DNA from: the human T2T-CHM13v2.0 reference genome, Homo sapiens
Length of the DNA stretch: 64,000 nt
NCBI RefSeq assembly: GCF_009914755.1
Contig: NC_060926.1
Strand: one strand, 5' to 3'
The notes under the pieces: model-generated
Told to the model about the DNA's origin: nothing
The model's database searches: none
What the model saw: the letters and a program-made list of their open reading frames with translations, nothing else
Position numbers and translations under genes: made by a program
Shown here: positions 5,936 to 46,945 of the stretch, piece after piece
Layout: every line of letters starts with the position of its first letter
How positions within the stretch are numbered: the first letter of the stretch is position 1

Positions 5936-6507
5936 GCTTCAGTTATTCATTGCTATATAACAAACTACCTCAAAATTTAATGGTTTTAACTACCACAATT
6001 TTATTTGCTCACAATTCTGTGGGCCAGAAATTTAGGGAGTGTTCAGCAGGGCCATTCTTCTGTTCTGTATGGCATCAGCTAGAGTTGGAATGTCCAAGAT
6101 GGCTGCCATGTGGCTGCATCCAGCTGACAGCTGAAATAGGCTGGAAAGTCCAAAAACGTTTCACTCATATGTCTGGGGCCTTCATGTACCTCCATGTAGC
6201 CTCTCTTTCTTCCATGCAGCTAGTTTGAGCTTCATTACAGCAAGGTGAACCAACATCTTACATGGTATCTAGGTTCCACAAGGAGTAAAAGTAGAAAGTA
6301 TAGATCTCCTAAGCTCCAGGCTTCAAATCCACAAGGAGTAAAAGTAGAAAGTATAGATCTCCTAAGCTCCAGGCTTCAAAGTTACATAGGGTTACTTCTG
6401 CCACAAAACAACAGGCATAAGATTCATGGAGATGAAGAGATAGATTACTTCTGTAGAGAAGAAGAGGGACAAAAGGAATCCAGATCTCTGTTTTGCAGTC
6501 TACCACA
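5936..6507 (-). mobile_element. MLT1 (MLT1H-like) ERVL-MaLR solo LTR
   Basis: Begins ttcagttattcattgctatataacaaactacc...tttgctcacaattctgtggg and ends gtctaccaca. Confidence 0.75.
6275..6380. repeat. Perfect 53-bp tandem duplication (2 copies)
   Basis: tccacaaggagtaaaagtagaaagtatagatctcctaagctccaggcttcaaa at 6275-6327 and 6328-6380. Confidence 0.97.
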
Positions 6508-7364
6508 CCTATCAACCTAGAGTGTCATCATTCATCAGGTCAAGCTAAAGCACCAAAATTTAACTCCCCTTCTTAATTTTTGAACCATTTTCTCTGCCTT
6601 CCAGGATCCCTAAAACCTGAAATCCAAACAGTTTAATGATACCGAATGTTTCAAATTAGTGTCTGTCTTATTGTTCTTGGTAGTTGGGGAAGGGATCAAT
6701 ATTAATGAAGAGAGAAGCAGCAAATATTGTTAATGAGGATAAACTAGGAGAGACCCAGTTACTGCAGGGATGTGTTTCAGCATGCATTGAATAAAATGAC
6801 ACAGGGTATGAAAGCCTGAGTCTTTGATGCACCCACAATAATAACAACCCCAAAGTTAGCACTATGGGTAAATTTTAATAGACGATGTCTTACAAAAAGC
6901 TCTTTGCGTGAAATGCAGCCCAAAGACTAAATTAGAGCCAAAGCCCCAGTCAGTTAACTGTGCTATAACATGTGAAGAATTGATTTTCTTATTTTCAGCT
7001 GTCAGACCTGCTACAAAGAATGAGTTTTAATTCTGGGGATGTTATTAAACTCCTTGCTTAACTGGCAGAAAAATGGAACTGCTAGCTGGGTGACAGTAGA
7101 GCTGCTGTCGGATTGAATGACACCTGTCAGAGTATGATGAATGACCCTGTCTTCCCCACAATCCCCTGTTCTGTCACTCAGGTGAGGCCCATTAATCTTC
7201 ATCCTGGGCCTGTCAGGCTAGGCACCCATGACGACAAAATGTCTTGAAGCATTTACCCCCAAGATGCACGGAACAATACGATCTTCTCATTGTCAGAGCC
7301 ACGTGGAATTAGCATAATTTATTATGACTTCCATCCCCCTCACTCTCTACCTCTATCACCACCC

Positions 7365-38915: not shown

Positions 38916-39229
38916 TTTTTGTTTGTTTGTTTGTTTTTGTTTTTGGAGACATGGTCTTGTTCTGTTAACCAAGCTGGAGTGCAGTGGTGAGATCATGGCT
39001 CACTGCAGCCTTGACTGCCCAGGCTTAAGCAATCCTCTCACCTCGGCCCTCCAAGTATTGAGGACTACAGGCATGCACCACCATGCCCAGCTAATTTGTA
39101 AATTTTTTTATAGAGATGGGGGTCTCACTGTGCTACCCAGGCTGGTCTCGAACTCCTGGGCTCAAGTAATCTTCCCACTTCAGACTCCCAAAATGCTGGG
39201 ACAACAGGTGTGACCCACCATGACTGGCC
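38916..39229 (-). mobile_element. AluJ
   Basis: Dimeric Alu with (GTTT)n tail. Confidence 0.9.
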
Positions 39230-39437
39230 ACTAGTAACTTTCAAATAAACTTTTTGGTAAAATGGAAATTCTAAGTTCTAATATATGGACATAAAACTTT
39301 GCTCAGCAATCTTCTAATTATCTGATTCTAATAATCTAAATATTAAGTTTGCTTCTTGACAATTTTTCAAATTCCAATAAATTTAAAAATATGTTAGTAA
39401 GTGAAGAACTGTAGAAAATAAACAAGAAGTGACCGTT

Positions 39438-39727
39438 GGCCAGGCATGGTGGCTCACGCCTGTAATCTCAGCACTTTGGGAGGCCGAGGTGGGCAGATAG
39501 CTTGAGCCCAGGAGTTTGACACCAGCCTGAGCAACACAGTGAGACCTCCATCTCTACAAAAAATGCAAAAATTAGTCAGGAGTGCTGGTGAGCACCTGTA
39601 TTCCCAGCTATTCAGGAGGCTGAGGTGGGAGGATCACTTGAGCCTAGGAGGTGGAGGTTGCAGTGAGCTGTGATAGCCTGGGCGACACAGTGAGACTCTG
39701 GCTCAAAAAAAAAAAAAAAAAAAAAAA
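39438..39727 (+). mobile_element. AluJ
   Basis: Dimeric Alu with long A tail; TSD aagtgaccgtt/aagcgaccctt. Confidence 0.9.
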
Positions 39728-43240: not shown

Positions 43241-44874
43241 AGGCACAGTAGAACCCTCTAGAATCAACAGGAGAAAGCAGGAGAAAAGAAAGGTGGACTG
43301 CAGACATTTAAAAAATATGTCAGAAAAGTGGGGTCGGAGCAAGGAGGACCAGGGACTGGCAACTAGTGTTTCCTTCTTGGGAAGGAATGTCCTTTCCAAA
43401 TTTCTCCCCGTACGTTCGTTCCTTATTCCCTCTACTGGAGACTATAAAACTCCTTCCTACAACCTGCCCTTCTGTCTACAGTGATCCTTTGAGCTTCCTC
43501 ACTGACCTTGCTCTATTTATTCCTTTATCTCTTCTCTCAAGGACAGATTGCTTAAATGTTTGTTTGTTTTTGCTGTTGTTCTGTCGTTTTGATTATAGAA
43601 GTAACAAGTACTCAGAAAATTTTTTAAGTACTGAAAACGTTAAAAGTACAGAAAAAAATACTAACTCCTACCACCAAGATTGATTGCATCTTTAGTCTGA
43701 AATGTTCACTATGTACAGAATTTCTTTATTCATTCTTCAATGCATTTCTTCCTGAAATACTTGGATCAAGACTGAGCCTTTTACAACATGCCCAAAGAGC
43801 CTAATACAGTACTTTACATCTGACAGAAGTTTAGTAAGTGTTCTTCAAATGAATAAAGAATGGGTGGAAAGTTACTCAGAATTTCATATGCCACAACTTA
43901 CTTGAAAAGTATGGCAATTTCACGCCAAATACTTTATTATGAATCACTCTGGGAAATCTATACCTATTATAAACATTTTATCATTTCTTCCTTAACATAT
44001 AAATGAAAGTAAAACCCATTTCTATGGATGCATAGAAAAACATAAAAGTAGGTGAACGAGGATGCCCACATTCTTTTATTCATATTTTGCTCACACCAAC
44101 GAATCAAGCCAGTGTCTAAGTGACTTATACAATACCTGACTATTGACAAACACACGCTCTTTGTGGATAGTTCTGCATGCTCTGTTGAGTTTCACTGTTG
44201 ATAGCTACTAAAAATCACTCAACCAGACAAGTCCACCCAAATGAAGAAGCTCGTTTATAGCTGTTAGACACATAGCACTAAACTCAAACCCCAAATCTTC
44301 CCTGATTCATTTAGGTCAAAAACGCTGAAGGATTAGGTGTGAGTCTTGCATTCTTGGTCACAAAATCAAGGGTACAAGTTTGGTTCTGCCCATGGGTTTT
44401 AGTCACCTCATAAAATTGAGATGGATTTGGAAGTACTTTGCTCTATCAGAGCTTTCCATCAGCAGGCCTACCGAACATCAAATAAATTTGTGATGACTCT
44501 CAAGAGGGCAGCTAATAAACAAGATAAAATCTTTCTTTTGTGAGCTTCAATGGGTAATACAGTTGAAACATGGAGTTACATATTAATAAAAGAGAGTCAT
44601 TTAGTTTATTACAAAGGTACACCGGATAGTCACAGCAAACACTAAATATGGCAAAATCAATAAACTAAAAAATGTTATTTAATCACTTTTATTTGCAGTG
44701 AGCTTCAACACCTGTCATTTTTTAAAAAACTTCTGAATAGCTGTTAAATAGAAGAATAGAATTTGGGCTCATTATCAACATGTGCTTGCATTTAATGTAC
44801 TCCATTATTATTACATGAAGTCACATATATCACAAGTTATATATATATTTAGGAAGTCAAATATATTCTACAAC

Positions 44875-45167
44875 TAATATTATATATGCATTATTTATAT
44901 ATAATATATATAAATATATGTTGTATTATATATTATATATTATATTTTATATAATATATATTATATATTATATTTATATATTATATATAATATATATTAT
45001 ATTATATGTATATATTATATATAATATATATTATACTATATGTATTATATATTATATATAATATATATTATATTATATGTATAATATATTATATATAAAT
45101 GTATATTATATATAATATTATATATTATATAAATATATATTATATATTACATAAATATATATATATT
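44875..45167. repeat. AT-rich low-complexity (TA/TATAT)n tract
   Basis: About 290 bp almost purely A/T. Confidence 0.95.
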
Positions 45168-45179
45168 TAGTCCACTGGG

Positions 45180-45527
45180 TGCAGTAGACTAAATATTTGG
45201 GTTCCCCCCAAATTCATGTTGAAATCCTAATGCCCAATGTGATGACATTAGGAGATGGGGCCTTCGGGAGATGATTAGGTAAAAAGGGTGGAGCTCTCAT
45301 GAATGAGACTAAGGCCCTTATCAAAGGGACCTCAGACAGCTCTCACCCTCTTTTCACCACATGAGGATAAAGCAAGAAACTGGCTGTGAACCAGGAAGCA
45401 GCCAGACATCAAATATTCTAGCCCCTTGATCTTGGACTTCCCAGCCTCCAGAACTGTGAGGAATAAATGTTTGTTGTTTAAGTCACCCAGTCCATGGTAT
45501 TCTGTTATAGCAGCCTGAATTAAGACA
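45180..45527 (+). mobile_element. MLT1A0 solo LTR, complete (left arm of inverted duplication)
   Basis: TG...taagaCA termini, MLT1A0 body, imperfect 5-bp TSD ctggg/ttggg. Confidence 0.9.
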
Positions 45528-45569
45528 TTGGGACAAAGCCAATTTAGGAAGTCAAATATATTCTACAAC

Positions 45570-45712
45570 CAATATATATTATATATATTTATATAAATAT
45601 AATATAAATTTTATATATAAAATTTATATATTTATATATAAATATATATAAATATATTCATGTATATATTTATATATATTTACGTATAAATATATACATA
45701 ATATATATATAT
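45570..45712. repeat. AT-rich spacer containing a perfect 28-bp palindrome (45602-45629)
   Basis: atataaattttatatataaaatttatat is its own reverse complement. Confidence 0.9.
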
Positions 45713-45719
45713 AGCAGCT

Positions 45720-46062
45720 TTAATTCAGGCTGCTGTAACAGAATACCATGGACTGGGTGACTTAAACAACAAACATTTATTCCTCACAGTTCTGGAGACT
45801 GGGAAGTCCAAGATCAAGGGGCGGAATATTTGATGTCTGGCTGCTTCCTGGTTCACAGCCAGTTACCTGCTTTATCCTCATGTGGTGAAAAGAGGGTGAG
45901 AGCTGTCTGAGGTCCCTTTGATAAGGGCCTTAGTCTCATTCATGAGAGCTCCACCCTTTTTACCTAATCATCTCCAGAAGGCCCCATATCCTAATGTCAT
46001 CACATTGGGCATTAGGATTTCAACATGAATTTGGGGGGAACCCAAATATTTAGTCCACTGCA
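45720..46062 (-). mobile_element. MLT1A0 LTR, inverted near-identical copy (right arm)
   Basis: Reverse complement of 45180-45523 with about 9 differences; lacks the terminal gaca. Confidence 0.92.
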
Positions 46063-46457
46063 CCCAGTTAAAGGGGTTTTGCTGCTTTTGCATTTTAATT
46101 CTACTCTTTTCATCTCTGACTTTTCTTATGGCTTTTCTTTTTTATTCTACTTTCAACATCTTGAATTAGCAATGACTGATTCCTTATTTTTCATGTATAA
46201 TTCTTTATAACATTGTTCCAGTTGATTCTTAAAGTCCCTTAGTAAGCTGACCACAGCTATATTTCCAAACAAACTTCCATTTTTTTTCTCAATCTGCTGC
46301 AGTCAAGGCTATCTTACCCACCTTTCTCACCTCTCTCGCCCATTTATGACATAAAGAGCTTTCTCTTGTCTAAACTTCCATTTCCCATAAACTCACCATA
46401 AGCAGTTAGCTAATTGCTTCACAGGCTTTCTTTTCCTTGTTCTGTTTTGTTTTTTGC

Positions 46458-46945
46458 TTTTTTGAGGTATAATTTACATACTATACAATTCATACTTTTA
46501 AAATGGACAATGTAATGGTTTTTACAGTATTCCCAAACTCGTGAACCCATCATCATTATCTAATTCCAGAACATTTTCATCATTCCAAAAATAAATTTAT
46601 ACCCATTAGCAGTCACTCCCCATTTCTCCTTCCTTCTAGACCCTTAAAACCACTAATCTACTTTATCCTCCAACTTTTGTTTTTCAACATTGCTTTGGCT
46701 GCTGTGGTTTTCTTACATTTCCATGTGAATTTTAGGATCAATTTCTTTTAAAAAACCAACTGGGATTTTGACAAAGATTGAATCTGTGGCTCAATTTGGT
46801 GAGTACTGCTATCTTAATAATATTATCTTACAATCCATAAACATGGATGTCTTCCCATTTATTTAGGTCTTCATTAGTTTCTTTCCGTAATGTTTTAAAG
46901 TTTTCAGTGTACAAGTTAAGCACTTCTTTTTCTGAAAAATTTATC
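46458..46945 (-). mobile_element. L1MB fragments (3' end joined to an ORF2 piece)
   Basis: tgaggtataatttacatac...agcagtcactcccc...accactaatctacttt, then ttccatgtgaattttaggatca...tttatttaggtcttc. Confidence 0.8.

What the first reader, a model, noticed from the sequence alone, without database searches (positions are those of the whole stretch)
45174..46068. ~900-bp quasi-palindrome: recent inverted duplication of an old MLT1A0 LTR around an AT-rich palindromic centre
Seen: 45174-45523 and 45720-46068 are reverse complements with about 9 differences in 350 bp (hand count, ~97%), and the match includes the non-LTR flank actggg. The ~196-bp spacer is mostly A/T and holds a perfect 28-bp palindrome (45602-45629) close to the symmetry axis (~45621). 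Known: MLT1A0 is an old eutherian family whose independent copies are far more diverged than this, so these are not two insertions. AT-centred palindromes (PATRR-like) extrude cruciforms. Inference: a primate-era local inverted duplication, or ongoing arm-to-arm gene conversion. It is a candidate fragile or inversion-polymorphic site and, if transcribed, a ~350-bp non-Alu dsRNA hairpin (ADAR, Dicer or MDA5 substrate).
Basis: partly seen in the sequence, partly recalled or inferred. Interest (0 to 1): 0.72.

Follow-up and report, generated by a model that had tools for sequence, protein, structure and literature searches.

The report
Inverted duplicate of one old LTR
One ancient retroviral end-piece (a solo LTR of the MaLR group) was copied in reverse next to itself a few to some tens of millions of years ago, probably by a replication slip at an AT-rich repeat; it is real but ordinary, with no sign of function.

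Summary
Arms 45174-45523 and 45720-46068 are reverse complements: 341 of 350 columns identical, 8 mismatches, 1 gap. The best other genomic copies reach only 72-78%. Both arms carry the same 6-nt non-LTR flank, so they are copies of one insertion.

The element is a gene-less solo LTR, TG..CA at 45180-45527, with a 4/5 five-base target-site duplication. It belongs to a large old dispersed family (K2P about 0.22-0.25 to other copies). It is collinear with a chr1 copy that print likens to MLT1A0. The subfamily could not be tested because no named repeat library was available.

Arm divergence is K2P 0.024 (95% range 1.0-4.6%). That suggests a hominoid-era event of roughly 10-12 My, with wide bounds.

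- a 34-nt unique segment plus an (AT)n tract is directly duplicated on both sides of arm L;
- a 15-nt templated stub with 4-nt microhomology sits at arm L's outer edge.

Together these fit iterative template switching better than a plain inverted duplication.

The PATRR/cruciform reading is not supported. The spacer is 196 bp and partly unique. The 28-bp palindrome is off axis and is near chance for an AT tract. No transcript is annotated here. Orthologues, haplotypes and expression could not be checked.

The parts
44847..44880 (+). X1: first copy of a 34-nt unique segment, directly repeated at 45542-45575 (33 of 34 identical)
   Evidence: the repeat finder D5. Its 28-mer core occurs exactly twice in the whole genome, both here, with 0 hits for the reversed control.
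44877..45166 (.). AT1: (AT)n / ATATATA-type microsatellite, 96.5% A+T, between X1 and arm L
   Evidence: TRF rows 44877-45166 and 44897-45165. Composition. RefSeq mask 44876-45173.
45163..45177 (+). 15-nt templated stub. It is an exact direct copy of 46046-46060 (the outer end of arm R) and the inverted complement of 45181-45195. It overlaps the start of the inverted homology by the 4 nt at 45174-45177.
   Evidence: exact match. Its 12-mer core occurs only at 45166 and 46049 in the 64-kb window. The 8-mer beyond the shared 4 nt occurs 3 times on both strands of the window.
45174..45179 (+). 6 nt of host flank shared by both arms. 45175-45179 is the 5' copy of the target-site duplication.
45180..45527 (+). 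Arm L: complete solo LTR (TG..CA, 348 nt) of an ERVL-MaLR MLT1-type family. It has no internal region and no genes.
   Evidence: Collinear with the print-anchored chr1 copy L031.
45528..45541 (+). 14-nt 3' flank of the LTR, present once only. 45528-45532 is the 3' copy of the target-site duplication (4 of 5 match 45175-45179).
45542..45575 (+). X2: second copy of the 34-nt unique segment
45572..45713 (.). AT2: (AT)n tract, 96.4% A+T. It holds the perfect 28-bp palindrome 45602-45629 and a 49+49-nt quasi-palindrome at 88% (45612-45709).
   Evidence: TRF, the repeat finder I17, shuffles.
45710..45718 (+). 9-nt piece at the inner edge of arm R that pairs with 45729-45737 (8 of 9) across a 10-nt loop. 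This is a weak snap-back signature, because 4 of the 9 nt may simply belong to the AT tract.
   Evidence: junction J4.
45720..46062 (-). Arm R: inverted copy of the same LTR. It lacks the last 4 nt of the LTR and the 3' flank.
46063..46068 (-). Inverted copy of the 6-nt host flank, followed by single-copy DNA

Best explanation
A single solo LTR of the ERVL-MaLR group lay beside an (AT)n microsatellite. It is MLT1-type and probably MLT1A0. It inserted around the early radiation of placental mammals.

Much later, probably in the hominoid lineage, replication or repair synthesis stalled at the AT tract and the growing strand switched templates several times over about 1.2 kb. One switch was a fold-back onto the opposite strand at a natural 4-bp inverted repeat straddling the LTR's 5' edge. 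That switch produced the inverted LTR copy. Another switch re-copied the 34-nt segment X and the AT tract in direct orientation.

The result is the present layout: X1, AT1, a 15-nt stub, flank plus LTR(+), 14-nt flank, X2, AT2, LTR(-) plus flank.

Shown:
- the layout;
- the junction sequences;
- that the arms come from one insertion;
- the divergence values.

Inferred:
- the replicative mechanism;
- the order of the switches;
- which arm is in its ancestral place;
- the date.

The structure has no demonstrated function. It is a neutral rearrangement scar in a gene desert.
For: One insertion, two copies:
- 341 of 350 columns identical, with the shared 6-nt flank.
- The other 37 scored copies in each search are 74-78% or 72-77% identical.
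- K2P between the arms is 0.0237, against a median of 0.224 to 28 other copies.

LTR identity and bounds:
- 6449 and 7177 first-look candidates genome-wide.
- TG..CA ends in 26 of 40 copies. 5-bp flank matches of at least 4/5 in 16 of 40, against 1 of 40 in a shifted control.
- The locus's own TSD matches 4 of 5.
- It is collinear with, and K2P 0.245 from, the chr1 copy that yields exactly the 170-bp product given in PMC4046698 for a repeat 'similar' to an MLT1A0 repeat.

Complex event:
- X occurs twice in the genome, both copies here, and each is followed by an AT tract.
- The exact 15-mer 45163-45177 equals 46046-46060 and overlaps the inverted homology by 4 nt.
- A short insert lying inverted next to its template and flanked by microhomology is the printed signature of MMBIR templated insertions (PMC8421209 passages).
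- Short inserts at about 35% of such junctions and fold-back at microhomology are described in PMC9199198 (passages).
- Inverted repeats of 5-9 bp with 3-12-bp spacers can drive palindromic duplication (PMC7999016 passages).

Not an artefact and not a segmental duplication:
- The arms differ at 9 columns, and AT1 and AT2 differ.
- Both outer flanks are single-copy.
Against: - No outgroup or second human haplotype could be read, so the ancestral layout is unknown and the number and order of switches is a reconstruction.
- Every single-pass model I tried needs either 4-5 switches or a later deletion. The deletion could be, for example, the collapse of a near-perfect head-to-head palindrome down to the 15-nt stub.
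- The two arms give conflicting hints about which one is in place. Arm L keeps the full LTR 3' end, the 3' TSD copy and the 14-nt flank. Arm R abuts single-copy DNA and matches the 15-mer exactly.
- Microhomology is clear at only one junction (4 nt). At X1, X2 and the outer end of arm R it is 0-2 nt, which also fits end joining.
- The 9-nt piece at 45710-45718 is weak evidence.
- At 7-8 of the 9 differing columns it is arm R that carries the state rare in the family. A simple clock does not predict this (two-sided p 0.008-0.125 depending on scoring). Printed error rates near such junctions, about 2 per 15 kb (PMC4352052 passages), are far too low to explain it.
Confidence: 0.6

Rival explanations
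1. A plain local inverted duplication of the LTR around an AT-rich palindromic centre, kept similar by arm-to-arm gene conversion. The site would behave like a PATRR.
For: Arms 97.4% identical. AT-rich tract and a perfect 28-bp palindrome between them. As a single strand it folds into one long hairpin: DNA -461.9 kcal/mol, z -53; RNA -724.1 kcal/mol, z -61.
Against: It does not explain the direct duplication of X plus the AT tract, or the 15-nt stub. The spacer is 196 bp, 52 nt of it unique, and the palindrome is 6 bp off axis and near chance within the AT tract (110 of 2000 shuffles). The arms are 55% A+T. Print: a 9-nt spacer abolishes PATRR22 extrusion, and long spacers stabilise inverted repeats in eukaryotes. 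No long identical tract suggests conversion.
Confidence: 0.15
2. Non-replicative origin. One or more double-strand breaks in the fragile AT tract were repaired by end joining, with capture of nearby fragments. The captured pieces would be an inverted LTR fragment and a direct X-AT fragment.
For: Three of the junctions show 0-2 nt of microhomology. AT tracts lie at or next to every junction.
Against: The captured pieces are copies, not moved pieces, because the originals remain. That needs synthesis. The 15-mer with 4-nt overlap at a natural inverted repeat is the printed template-switch signature.
Confidence: 0.15
3. Assembly artefact: a fold-back chimera in long reads that was carried into the reference.
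For: Palindromes and AT-rich tracts are hard to sequence. I could not look at reads or at a second assembly.
Against: A chimeric fold-back would give identical arms and a trivial centre. Here the arms differ at 9 columns and X1 and X2 differ at 1 of 34. AT1 (289 bp) and AT2 (138 bp) differ in length and sequence. The centre also holds a unique 14-nt flank.
Confidence: 0.03
4. Two independent insertions of the same LTR family in opposite orientation.
For: The family is very abundant (6449-7177 first-look candidates). Inverted pairs of independent repeats do occur, such as the Alu-like pair at 39104-39563.
Against: K2P between the arms is 0.024, against 0.16-0.26 to any other copy and a median of 0.238 among other copies. 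The arms share 6 nt of flank, including one TSD copy. The independent Alu-like pair in the same window is only 82% complementary.
Confidence: 0.01

Closest known systems
MLT1A0 / MLT1-type solo LTR of ERVL-MaLR (class ERV3 in Repbase)
   Same: A 348-nt LTR with TG..CA ends and a 5-bp target-site duplication. Thousands of diverged dispersed relatives. No internal region. Collinear with a copy that print ties to MLT1A0. Repbase lists MLT1A0 under MaLR/ERV3 (PMC5753468 passages). Print places the family across placental mammals but not opossum, and active around the split of the boreoeutherian superorders.
   Different: It is present here as two copies of one insertion. I had no named library to test it.
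Replication-based complex rearrangements (FoSTeS/MMBIR; DUP-TRP/INV-DUP; MMBIR templated insertions)
   Same: A mix of direct and inverted duplication over a short span. A short templated insert lies inverted next to its template. There is 4-nt microhomology at a fold-back point, and a structure-prone repeat lies at the junctions (print).
   Different: The scale is about 1.2 kb, not kilobases to megabases. It is a fixed, old, apparently neutral germline event rather than a disease allele. Only two LTR copies remain, so a triplicated intermediate is inferred, not seen. The parent allele is unavailable.
PATRR (palindromic AT-rich repeats of 11q23, 17q11, 22q11)
   Same: AT-rich sequence with palindromic stretches at the centre of an inverted repeat. 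Strong hairpin potential as a single strand.
   Different: PATRRs are near-perfect, spacer-free, AT-rich palindromes of about 190-600 bp, whose central symmetry is critical (PMC1851657 passages). Here the long arms are 55% A+T, are separated by 196 bp, and the centre is asymmetric.
Inverted Alu pairs as sources of instability and of edited dsRNA
   Same: Two roughly 300-350-nt repeat copies in inverted orientation within a few hundred bp. They could form a long intramolecular duplex if transcribed. Alu pairs are the main A-to-I editing targets (PMC526178, search listing and start of abstract only).
   Different: The arms are far more alike (97% against 82% for the Alu-like pair in this window). 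They are not Alu. They lie outside any annotated transcript.

Membership tests
ERVL-MaLR LTR, MLT1 group (MLT1A0 proposed) | Many dispersed, diverged genomic relatives along the whole LTR | tested here: met
   6449 (arm L) and 7177 (arm R) first-look candidates, 39 scored each. The 37 non-self hits cover most of the query at 72-78% identity.
ERVL-MaLR LTR, MLT1 group (MLT1A0 proposed) | LTR termini TG..CA | tested here: met
   45180-45181 and 45526-45527. The same mapped ends are TG..CA in 26 of 40 other copies.
ERVL-MaLR LTR, MLT1 group (MLT1A0 proposed) | 5-bp target-site duplication (that class III/ERVL-type elements make 5-bp duplications is recalled, not from a call) | tested here: met
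   This copy matches 4 of 5 (45175-45179 against 45528-45532). In the family, at least 4/5 in 16 of 40 copies against 1 of 40 in a shifted control.
ERVL-MaLR LTR, MLT1 group (MLT1A0 proposed) | Likeness to a copy named in print | tested here: met
   The primers of PMC4046698 (passages) give exactly the printed 170-bp product at G000 C1:112.03 Mb (L031). Arm L aligns to that copy over 291 nt at 79.4%, K2P 0.245. That is inside the 0.160-0.255 range of its 28 best relatives. The paper calls this chr1 repeat 'similar' to the MLT1A0 repeat at DEFA1A3, so the anchor is at family level.
ERVL-MaLR LTR, MLT1 group (MLT1A0 proposed) | Best match to the MLT1A0 model rather than to MLT1A, MLT1A1, MLT1B and others in a named library | not testable with these tools
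   No Dfam, Repbase or RepeatMasker is on hand, and the RefSeq mask carries no family names. A young MaLR (THE1/MST) is unlikely given K2P of 0.16 or more to every other copy. That reasoning rests on recalled ages.
PATRR | Near-perfect palindrome with central symmetry and no spacer | tested here: not met
   196-bp spacer, 52 nt of it unique. The 28-bp palindrome is 6 bp off axis. The largest AT2 quasi-palindrome (49+49 nt, 88%) is centred 39 bp off axis. The criterion is from PMC1851657.
PATRR | AT-rich along the palindrome arms, several hundred bp | tested here: not met
   Arms are 55.1% and 54.7% A+T. Only 138 bp of the centre is 96% A+T.
FoSTeS/MMBIR-type complex rearrangement | Several junctions combining direct and inverted copies of nearby sequence | tested here: met
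   Direct X1/X2 plus their AT tracts, and inverted LTR arms, within 1.2 kb.
FoSTeS/MMBIR-type complex rearrangement | Microhomology and short templated insertions at junctions | tested here: inconclusive
   Clear at one junction: a 15-nt templated piece with 4-nt overlap. Weak at 45710-45718. 0-2 nt at the others.
FoSTeS/MMBIR-type complex rearrangement | Comparison with the unrearranged parent sequence | not testable with these tools
Transcribed inverted-repeat dsRNA source (like edited inverted Alu pairs) | Both arms lie within one transcript | tested here: not met
   No RefSeq transcript overlaps the site. LINC01828 ends 16.7 kb upstream and ETAA1 starts 91 kb downstream. Rfam gave only three sub-threshold chance hits. 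Expression data were not available, so unannotated transcription is not excluded.

The most novel reading that the evidence does not exclude
The locus is a fixed germline fossil of an iterative fold-back template-switch event of the DUP-TRP/INV-DUP kind, in miniature. The event was seeded by an (AT)n tract. Its near-perfect head-to-head palindrome intermediate collapsed to a 15-nt stub. The copied arm carries a burst of synthesis errors, with 7-8 of the 9 differences on arm R. The 350-bp arms may still flip or delete the 196-bp spacer in living people. If the convergent LTRs are transcribed, they may make a roughly 350-bp non-Alu duplex.
Probability: 0.15. Interest if true: 0.45.

Novelty: new member of a known kind. 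Interest (0 to 1): 0.25.

Why it matters
It matters little for function. The site lies in a gene desert, carries no gene and has no annotated transcript.

Its modest value is as a clean, datable natural example of how AT-rich microsatellites seed small complex rearrangements. The junction signatures are still legible after millions of years.

It also shows that two adjacent repeat annotations in opposite orientation can be one insertion plus a later rearrangement. That matters when old LTR copies are counted or dated.

If the spacer proves to be inversion-polymorphic, or the arms are co-transcribed, it would add one non-Alu case to the known inverted-repeat sources of structural variation or dsRNA.

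Tried and rejected
Rfam at a permissive threshold over 44300-46600 gave three hits, all far below their gathering scores (20 bits against 50-80). I treat them as chance.

I asked whether the outer flanks belong to an older repeat whose other copies would reveal the pre-insertion layout. Both flanks are single-copy. The only other hit is a 40-nt, 90% match on chromosome 8, stored as L056 and not used. The test therefore gave nothing.

I tried to anchor the name on the DEFA1A3 copy that print calls MLT1A0. The 21-mer gave 3 exact hits (chr1, chr6, chr12) and none on chr8. Only the chr1 reference copy could be used. L032 and L033 lack the second primer, so I left them out of the counts.

Error-prone repair synthesis as the cause of arm R's excess of rare states: considered, but the printed rate of about 2 per 15 kb is some two orders of magnitude too low. 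I leave the asymmetry unexplained (note).

Gene conversion: no long identical tract. Neither shown nor excluded.

A spacer flip by recombination between the arms, tried as a way to simplify the history: worked through on paper, it does not reduce the number of events.

[quoted passage not shown] I know it only from the reference lists and citing sentences seen.

Literature searches for this locus or for inverted MaLR hairpins found nothing on this site. The searches were 'MLT1A0' (33 papers), 'inverted repeat + MaLR + hairpin + dsRNA + LTR' (5 papers) and 'LINC01828' (8 papers). Supplementary files were not opened. Those of PMC10735291 and PMC8421209 could hold locus lists that bear on this site.

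Primate orthologues, other human haplotypes, reads, expression, editing and break maps were not available. The date rests on arm divergence and on recalled genome-wide species divergences.

My sample of family copies is the best-scoring few of thousands. Its divergences are therefore biased low. The column counts also lean slightly towards the query arm, which is why I repeated the search with arm R.
Full report
**1. The observation.**

Reading 44900-46400 and aligning the two stretches confirms the finding. 45174-45523 and the reverse complement of 45720-46068 align over 350 columns, with 341 identities, 8 mismatches and one single-base gap (97.4%). The repeat finder reports the same pair as two gap-free blocks of 245 and 103 nt, each 98%.

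The spacer is 196 bp and 86.7% A+T, but it is not uniform:
- Its first 52 nt are 67% A+T. They consist of the last 4 nt of the LTR, a 14-nt unique flank and a 34-nt unique segment.
- Only 45576-45713 is a 96% A+T tract.

45602-45629 is a perfect 28-bp palindrome. Its centre lies 6 bp from the axis of the arms. When the AT tract alone is shuffled with dinucleotides kept, a perfect palindrome of 28 bp or more appears in 110 of 2000 shuffles. With the whole spacer shuffled it appears in 10 of 2000. The palindrome is real but is about what an (AT)n tract gives.

**2. One insertion, not two.**

A search of the whole reference with arm L plus flank found 6449 first-look candidates, of which 39 were scored. 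These were the two arms (100% and 97%) and 37 other copies at 74-78%. The reciprocal search with arm R gave 7177 candidates, 39 scored, the others at 72-77%.

In my own local alignments:

| Comparison | Sites or pairs | K2P |
|---|---|---|
| Arm L vs arm R | 343 sites | 0.0237 |
| Arm L vs its 28 best relatives | 28 copies | 0.160-0.255, median 0.224 |
| Among 29 other copies | 406 pairs | median 0.238 |

The arms also share 6 nt that lie outside the LTR. No alignment of 29 other copies to arm L starts before 45177.

For comparison, the window's other inverted pair is 39104-39240 and 39427-39563. It is Alu-like by recalled motifs and is only 82% complementary. That is what independent insertions look like.

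**3. What the element is.**

The unit 45180-45527 begins TG and ends CA. It is flanked by 5-mers that match at 4 of 5 positions.

Mapping these bounds onto 40 other copies gives TG..CA in 26 of 40. The 5-bp flanks match at 4/5 or better in 16 of 40, against 1 of 40 for a shifted control. The bounds are therefore true LTR ends and the family makes 5-bp target-site duplications. That a 5-bp duplication marks class III/ERVL-type elements is my recall.

Nothing resembling an internal region adjoins either arm. The neighbours are AT tracts and single-copy DNA. It is a solo LTR without genes, and nothing was translated.

For the name I had no repeat library. The RefSeq mask has no family names and covers only 44876-45173, 45418-45522 and 45568-45824 here. 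As a print anchor I used PMC4046698 (passages read). It gives primers for 'an MLT1A0 dispersed repeat' at DEFA1A3 and 'a similar repeat' on chromosome 1, with a 170-bp product.
- The 21-mer hits chromosome 1 at 112.03 Mb, and both primers there span exactly 170 bp.
- Arm L aligns to that copy over 291 nt at 79.4%, K2P 0.245. That is within the range of its best relatives.
- The two primer sites fall in the corresponding order within arm L. This last point is my reading of the sequence.

Repbase lists MLT1A0 under MaLR, class ERV3 (PMC5753468 passages). The assignment 'ERVL-MaLR, MLT1 group' is therefore supported. 'MLT1A0' is consistent but untested against sister subfamilies.

**4. Ages.**

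Family. Print says that most MaLR members are widespread in placental mammals, absent from opossum, and that MLT1A0 is older than MLT1A1 (PMC10735291 passages). Clade-specific MLT1A0 insertions mark both Supraprimates and Laurasiatheria (PMC1395351 and PMC1914374 passages). The family was therefore active around the split of those superorders. This copy's K2P of about 0.22-0.25 to other copies fits such an age. My sample is the best-scoring few of thousands, so these values are biased low.

Duplication. There are 8 substitutions in 343 sites, K2P 0.0237, with a Poisson 95% range of 1.0-4.6%. X1 and X2 differ at 1 of 34 positions, which is compatible.

Two paralogous copies diverge at the same pace as two species' orthologues. 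The recalled genome-wide values are about 1.2% for human-chimpanzee, 1.6% for gorilla, 3.1-3.4% for orangutan and 6-6.5% for macaque. On that scale the point estimate falls between the gorilla and orangutan splits. That is roughly 10-12 My at 1e-9 per site per year, and about twice that at pedigree-based rates. The range runs from about the chimpanzee split to well short of the macaque split. Gene conversion would make this a minimum. A burst of copying errors would make it a maximum.

**5. The layout is more complex than the finding says.**

The repeat finder also found a direct repeat: 44847-44880 equals 45542-45575 at 33 of 34 positions. Its 28-mer core occurs exactly twice in the 3.1-Gb genome, both here, with no hit for the reversed control. 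Each copy is followed by an (AT)n tract:
- AT1, 44877-45166, 289 bp;
- AT2, 45572-45713, 138 bp.

From left to right the order is:
1. unique DNA;
2. X1;
3. AT1;
4. a 15-nt stub;
5. 6-nt flank;
6. LTR(+), complete;
7. 14-nt flank;
8. X2;
9. AT2;
10. LTR(-), lacking its last 4 nt;
11. 6-nt flank;
12. unique DNA.

The stub 45163-45177 is an exact direct copy of 46046-46060, the outer end of arm R. It is therefore the inverted complement of the start of arm L. It overlaps the inverted homology by 4 nt. Its 12-mer core occurs only at these two places in the window. The 8 nt beyond the overlap occur 3 times in 128 kb of both strands, so chance is below about 1e-3.

The 4-nt overlap is one half of a natural 4-bp inverted repeat, with a 4-nt loop, that straddles the flank/LTR boundary.

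A second, weaker hairpin-like piece (45710-45718 pairing with 45729-45737 at 8 of 9) sits at the inner edge of arm R. Four of its nine bases may simply be AT tract.

**6. Mechanism.**

A short insert lying inverted beside its own template and bounded by microhomology is the printed signature of MMBIR templated insertions (PMC8421209 passages). Supporting points from print:
- Replication-based rearrangements commonly carry short inserts at junctions and mix direct and inverted copies (PMC9199198 passages).
- Fold-back at a few bases of microhomology makes inverted duplications.
- Inverted repeats of 5-9 bp with 3-12-bp spacers can drive palindromic duplication in yeast (PMC7999016 passages).

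I therefore read the locus as the product of iterative template switching at a stalled fork or one-ended break in the AT tract. One switch goes onto the opposite strand at the LTR's 5' edge and gives the inverted arm. Another goes back to X and gives the direct duplication.

One economical version is a miniature duplication / inverted triplication / duplication. Its head-to-head, nearly spacer-free LTR palindrome would have been unstable and lost one arm, leaving the 15-nt stub. Another version keeps arm L in place and needs about five switches.

I cannot choose between them. Arm L keeps the full LTR 3' end, the 3' target-site copy and the 14-nt flank. Arm R adjoins single-copy DNA and is the exact source of the stub. 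Only an outgroup sequence can settle this. An end-joining origin with captured copies is a weaker rival, and an assembly artefact is unlikely. Section 8 gives the reasons for both.

**7. An unexplained asymmetry.**

I counted, at the nine differing columns only, the states found in other copies. The copies were 29 found with arm L as query and 11 further ones found with arm R as query. Eight of the 11 appear in the arm R list only.

- Arm R carries the rare state at seven columns, and probably at an eighth.
- One column is ambiguous by counts. There the 15-nt stub agrees with arm R, so arm L may be the changed one.
- The changes are four transitions, four transversions and one single-base indel.
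- Two neighbouring pairs lie within 2 nt of each other (random expectation 0.056).
- A two-sided binomial gives 0.008-0.125, depending on how adjacent changes are merged and how the ambiguous column is scored.

Error-prone repair synthesis of arm R would fit the direction. However, the printed frequency near such junctions is about 2 changes per 15 kb (PMC4352052 passages), which is far too low. I leave it as suggestive, possibly chance.

**8. Against the functional and structural claims.**

As a single strand the region folds into one long hairpin: DNA -461.9 kcal/mol, z -53; RNA -724.1 kcal/mol, z -61, with 20 shuffles each. That follows trivially from the inverted repeat.

Extrusion of a cruciform from duplex DNA is another matter:
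- A 9-nt central spacer with four nearby mismatches abolished extrusion and instability of PATRR22 (PMC1851657 passages).
- Inverted Alus 52 bp apart no longer stalled eukaryotic forks (PMC7999016 passages).
- Ty repeats 280 bp apart are stable in wild-type yeast (same passages).

With a 196-bp asymmetric spacer and arms of 55% A+T, the locus fails the PATRR criteria.

The rivals on origin fare as follows:
- End joining with captured copies is weaker because the originals remain, so synthesis is needed.
- An artefact is unlikely because the arms differ at nine columns, AT1 and AT2 differ, and the centre holds unique sequence.

No RefSeq transcript or functional element overlaps the site. LINC01828 ends 16.7 kb upstream and ETAA1 starts 91 kb downstream. 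The nearest listed enhancers lie more than 23 kb away, outside the window. Rfam shows nothing above threshold.

The two LTRs are convergent, so promoter activity in either one would read into the antisense of the other. This is inference only, and nothing shows these old LTRs to be active.

**9. Verdict.**

This is a real, old solo LTR of the MaLR group. It was duplicated in inverted orientation within a small complex rearrangement at an AT-rich microsatellite, probably in the hominoid lineage. It is a new example of a known kind of event. The junction detail is neat, but there is no evidence of function.

What I could not see: primate orthologues, other human haplotypes, reads, expression, editing, break maps, a named repeat library and papers' supplementary files.

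Noticed in passing
window 39104-39240 and 39427-39563: A second inverted repeat in the window: 137-nt arms, 82% complementary, 186 nt apart. By recalled motifs it is an ordinary pair of Alu elements in opposite orientation. It served as a local yardstick for independent insertions.
   Followed up: partly
window 45174-45523 vs 45720-46068: At 7-8 of the 9 columns where the arms differ, arm R has the state that is rare among 40 other family copies. Arm L has the rare state at one column at most. Two pairs of changes lie within 2 nt of each other. A simple clock does not predict this, and printed error rates of repair synthesis are too low to explain it.
   Followed up: partly
window 44877-45166 and 45572-45713: Two (AT)n / ATATATA-type tracts of 289 and 138 bp, about 96% A+T, rich in short and medium quasi-palindromes. 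Examples are 66+66 nt at 82% with no spacer at 44927-45058, and 49+49 nt at 88% at 45612-45709. They sit at or next to every junction of the rearrangement.
   Followed up: partly
G000 C1:112033539-112034559 (L031): The chromosome-1 reference copy used in a published paralogue-ratio assay is present in this assembly, with both primers exactly 170 bp apart as printed. The 21-nt primer also hits chr6 and chr12 copies exactly, without the partner primer. No exact hit was shown on chr8, where the assay's DEFA1A3 target lies; this may reflect a primer mismatch or a closed region.
   Followed up: no
window 45418-45522 and 45568-45824 (RefSeq mask): The public soft-mask covers only about a third of each LTR arm (stretches of 100 bases or more), plus the AT tracts. 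Most of this old LTR pair reads as unmasked sequence in that annotation.
   Followed up: no
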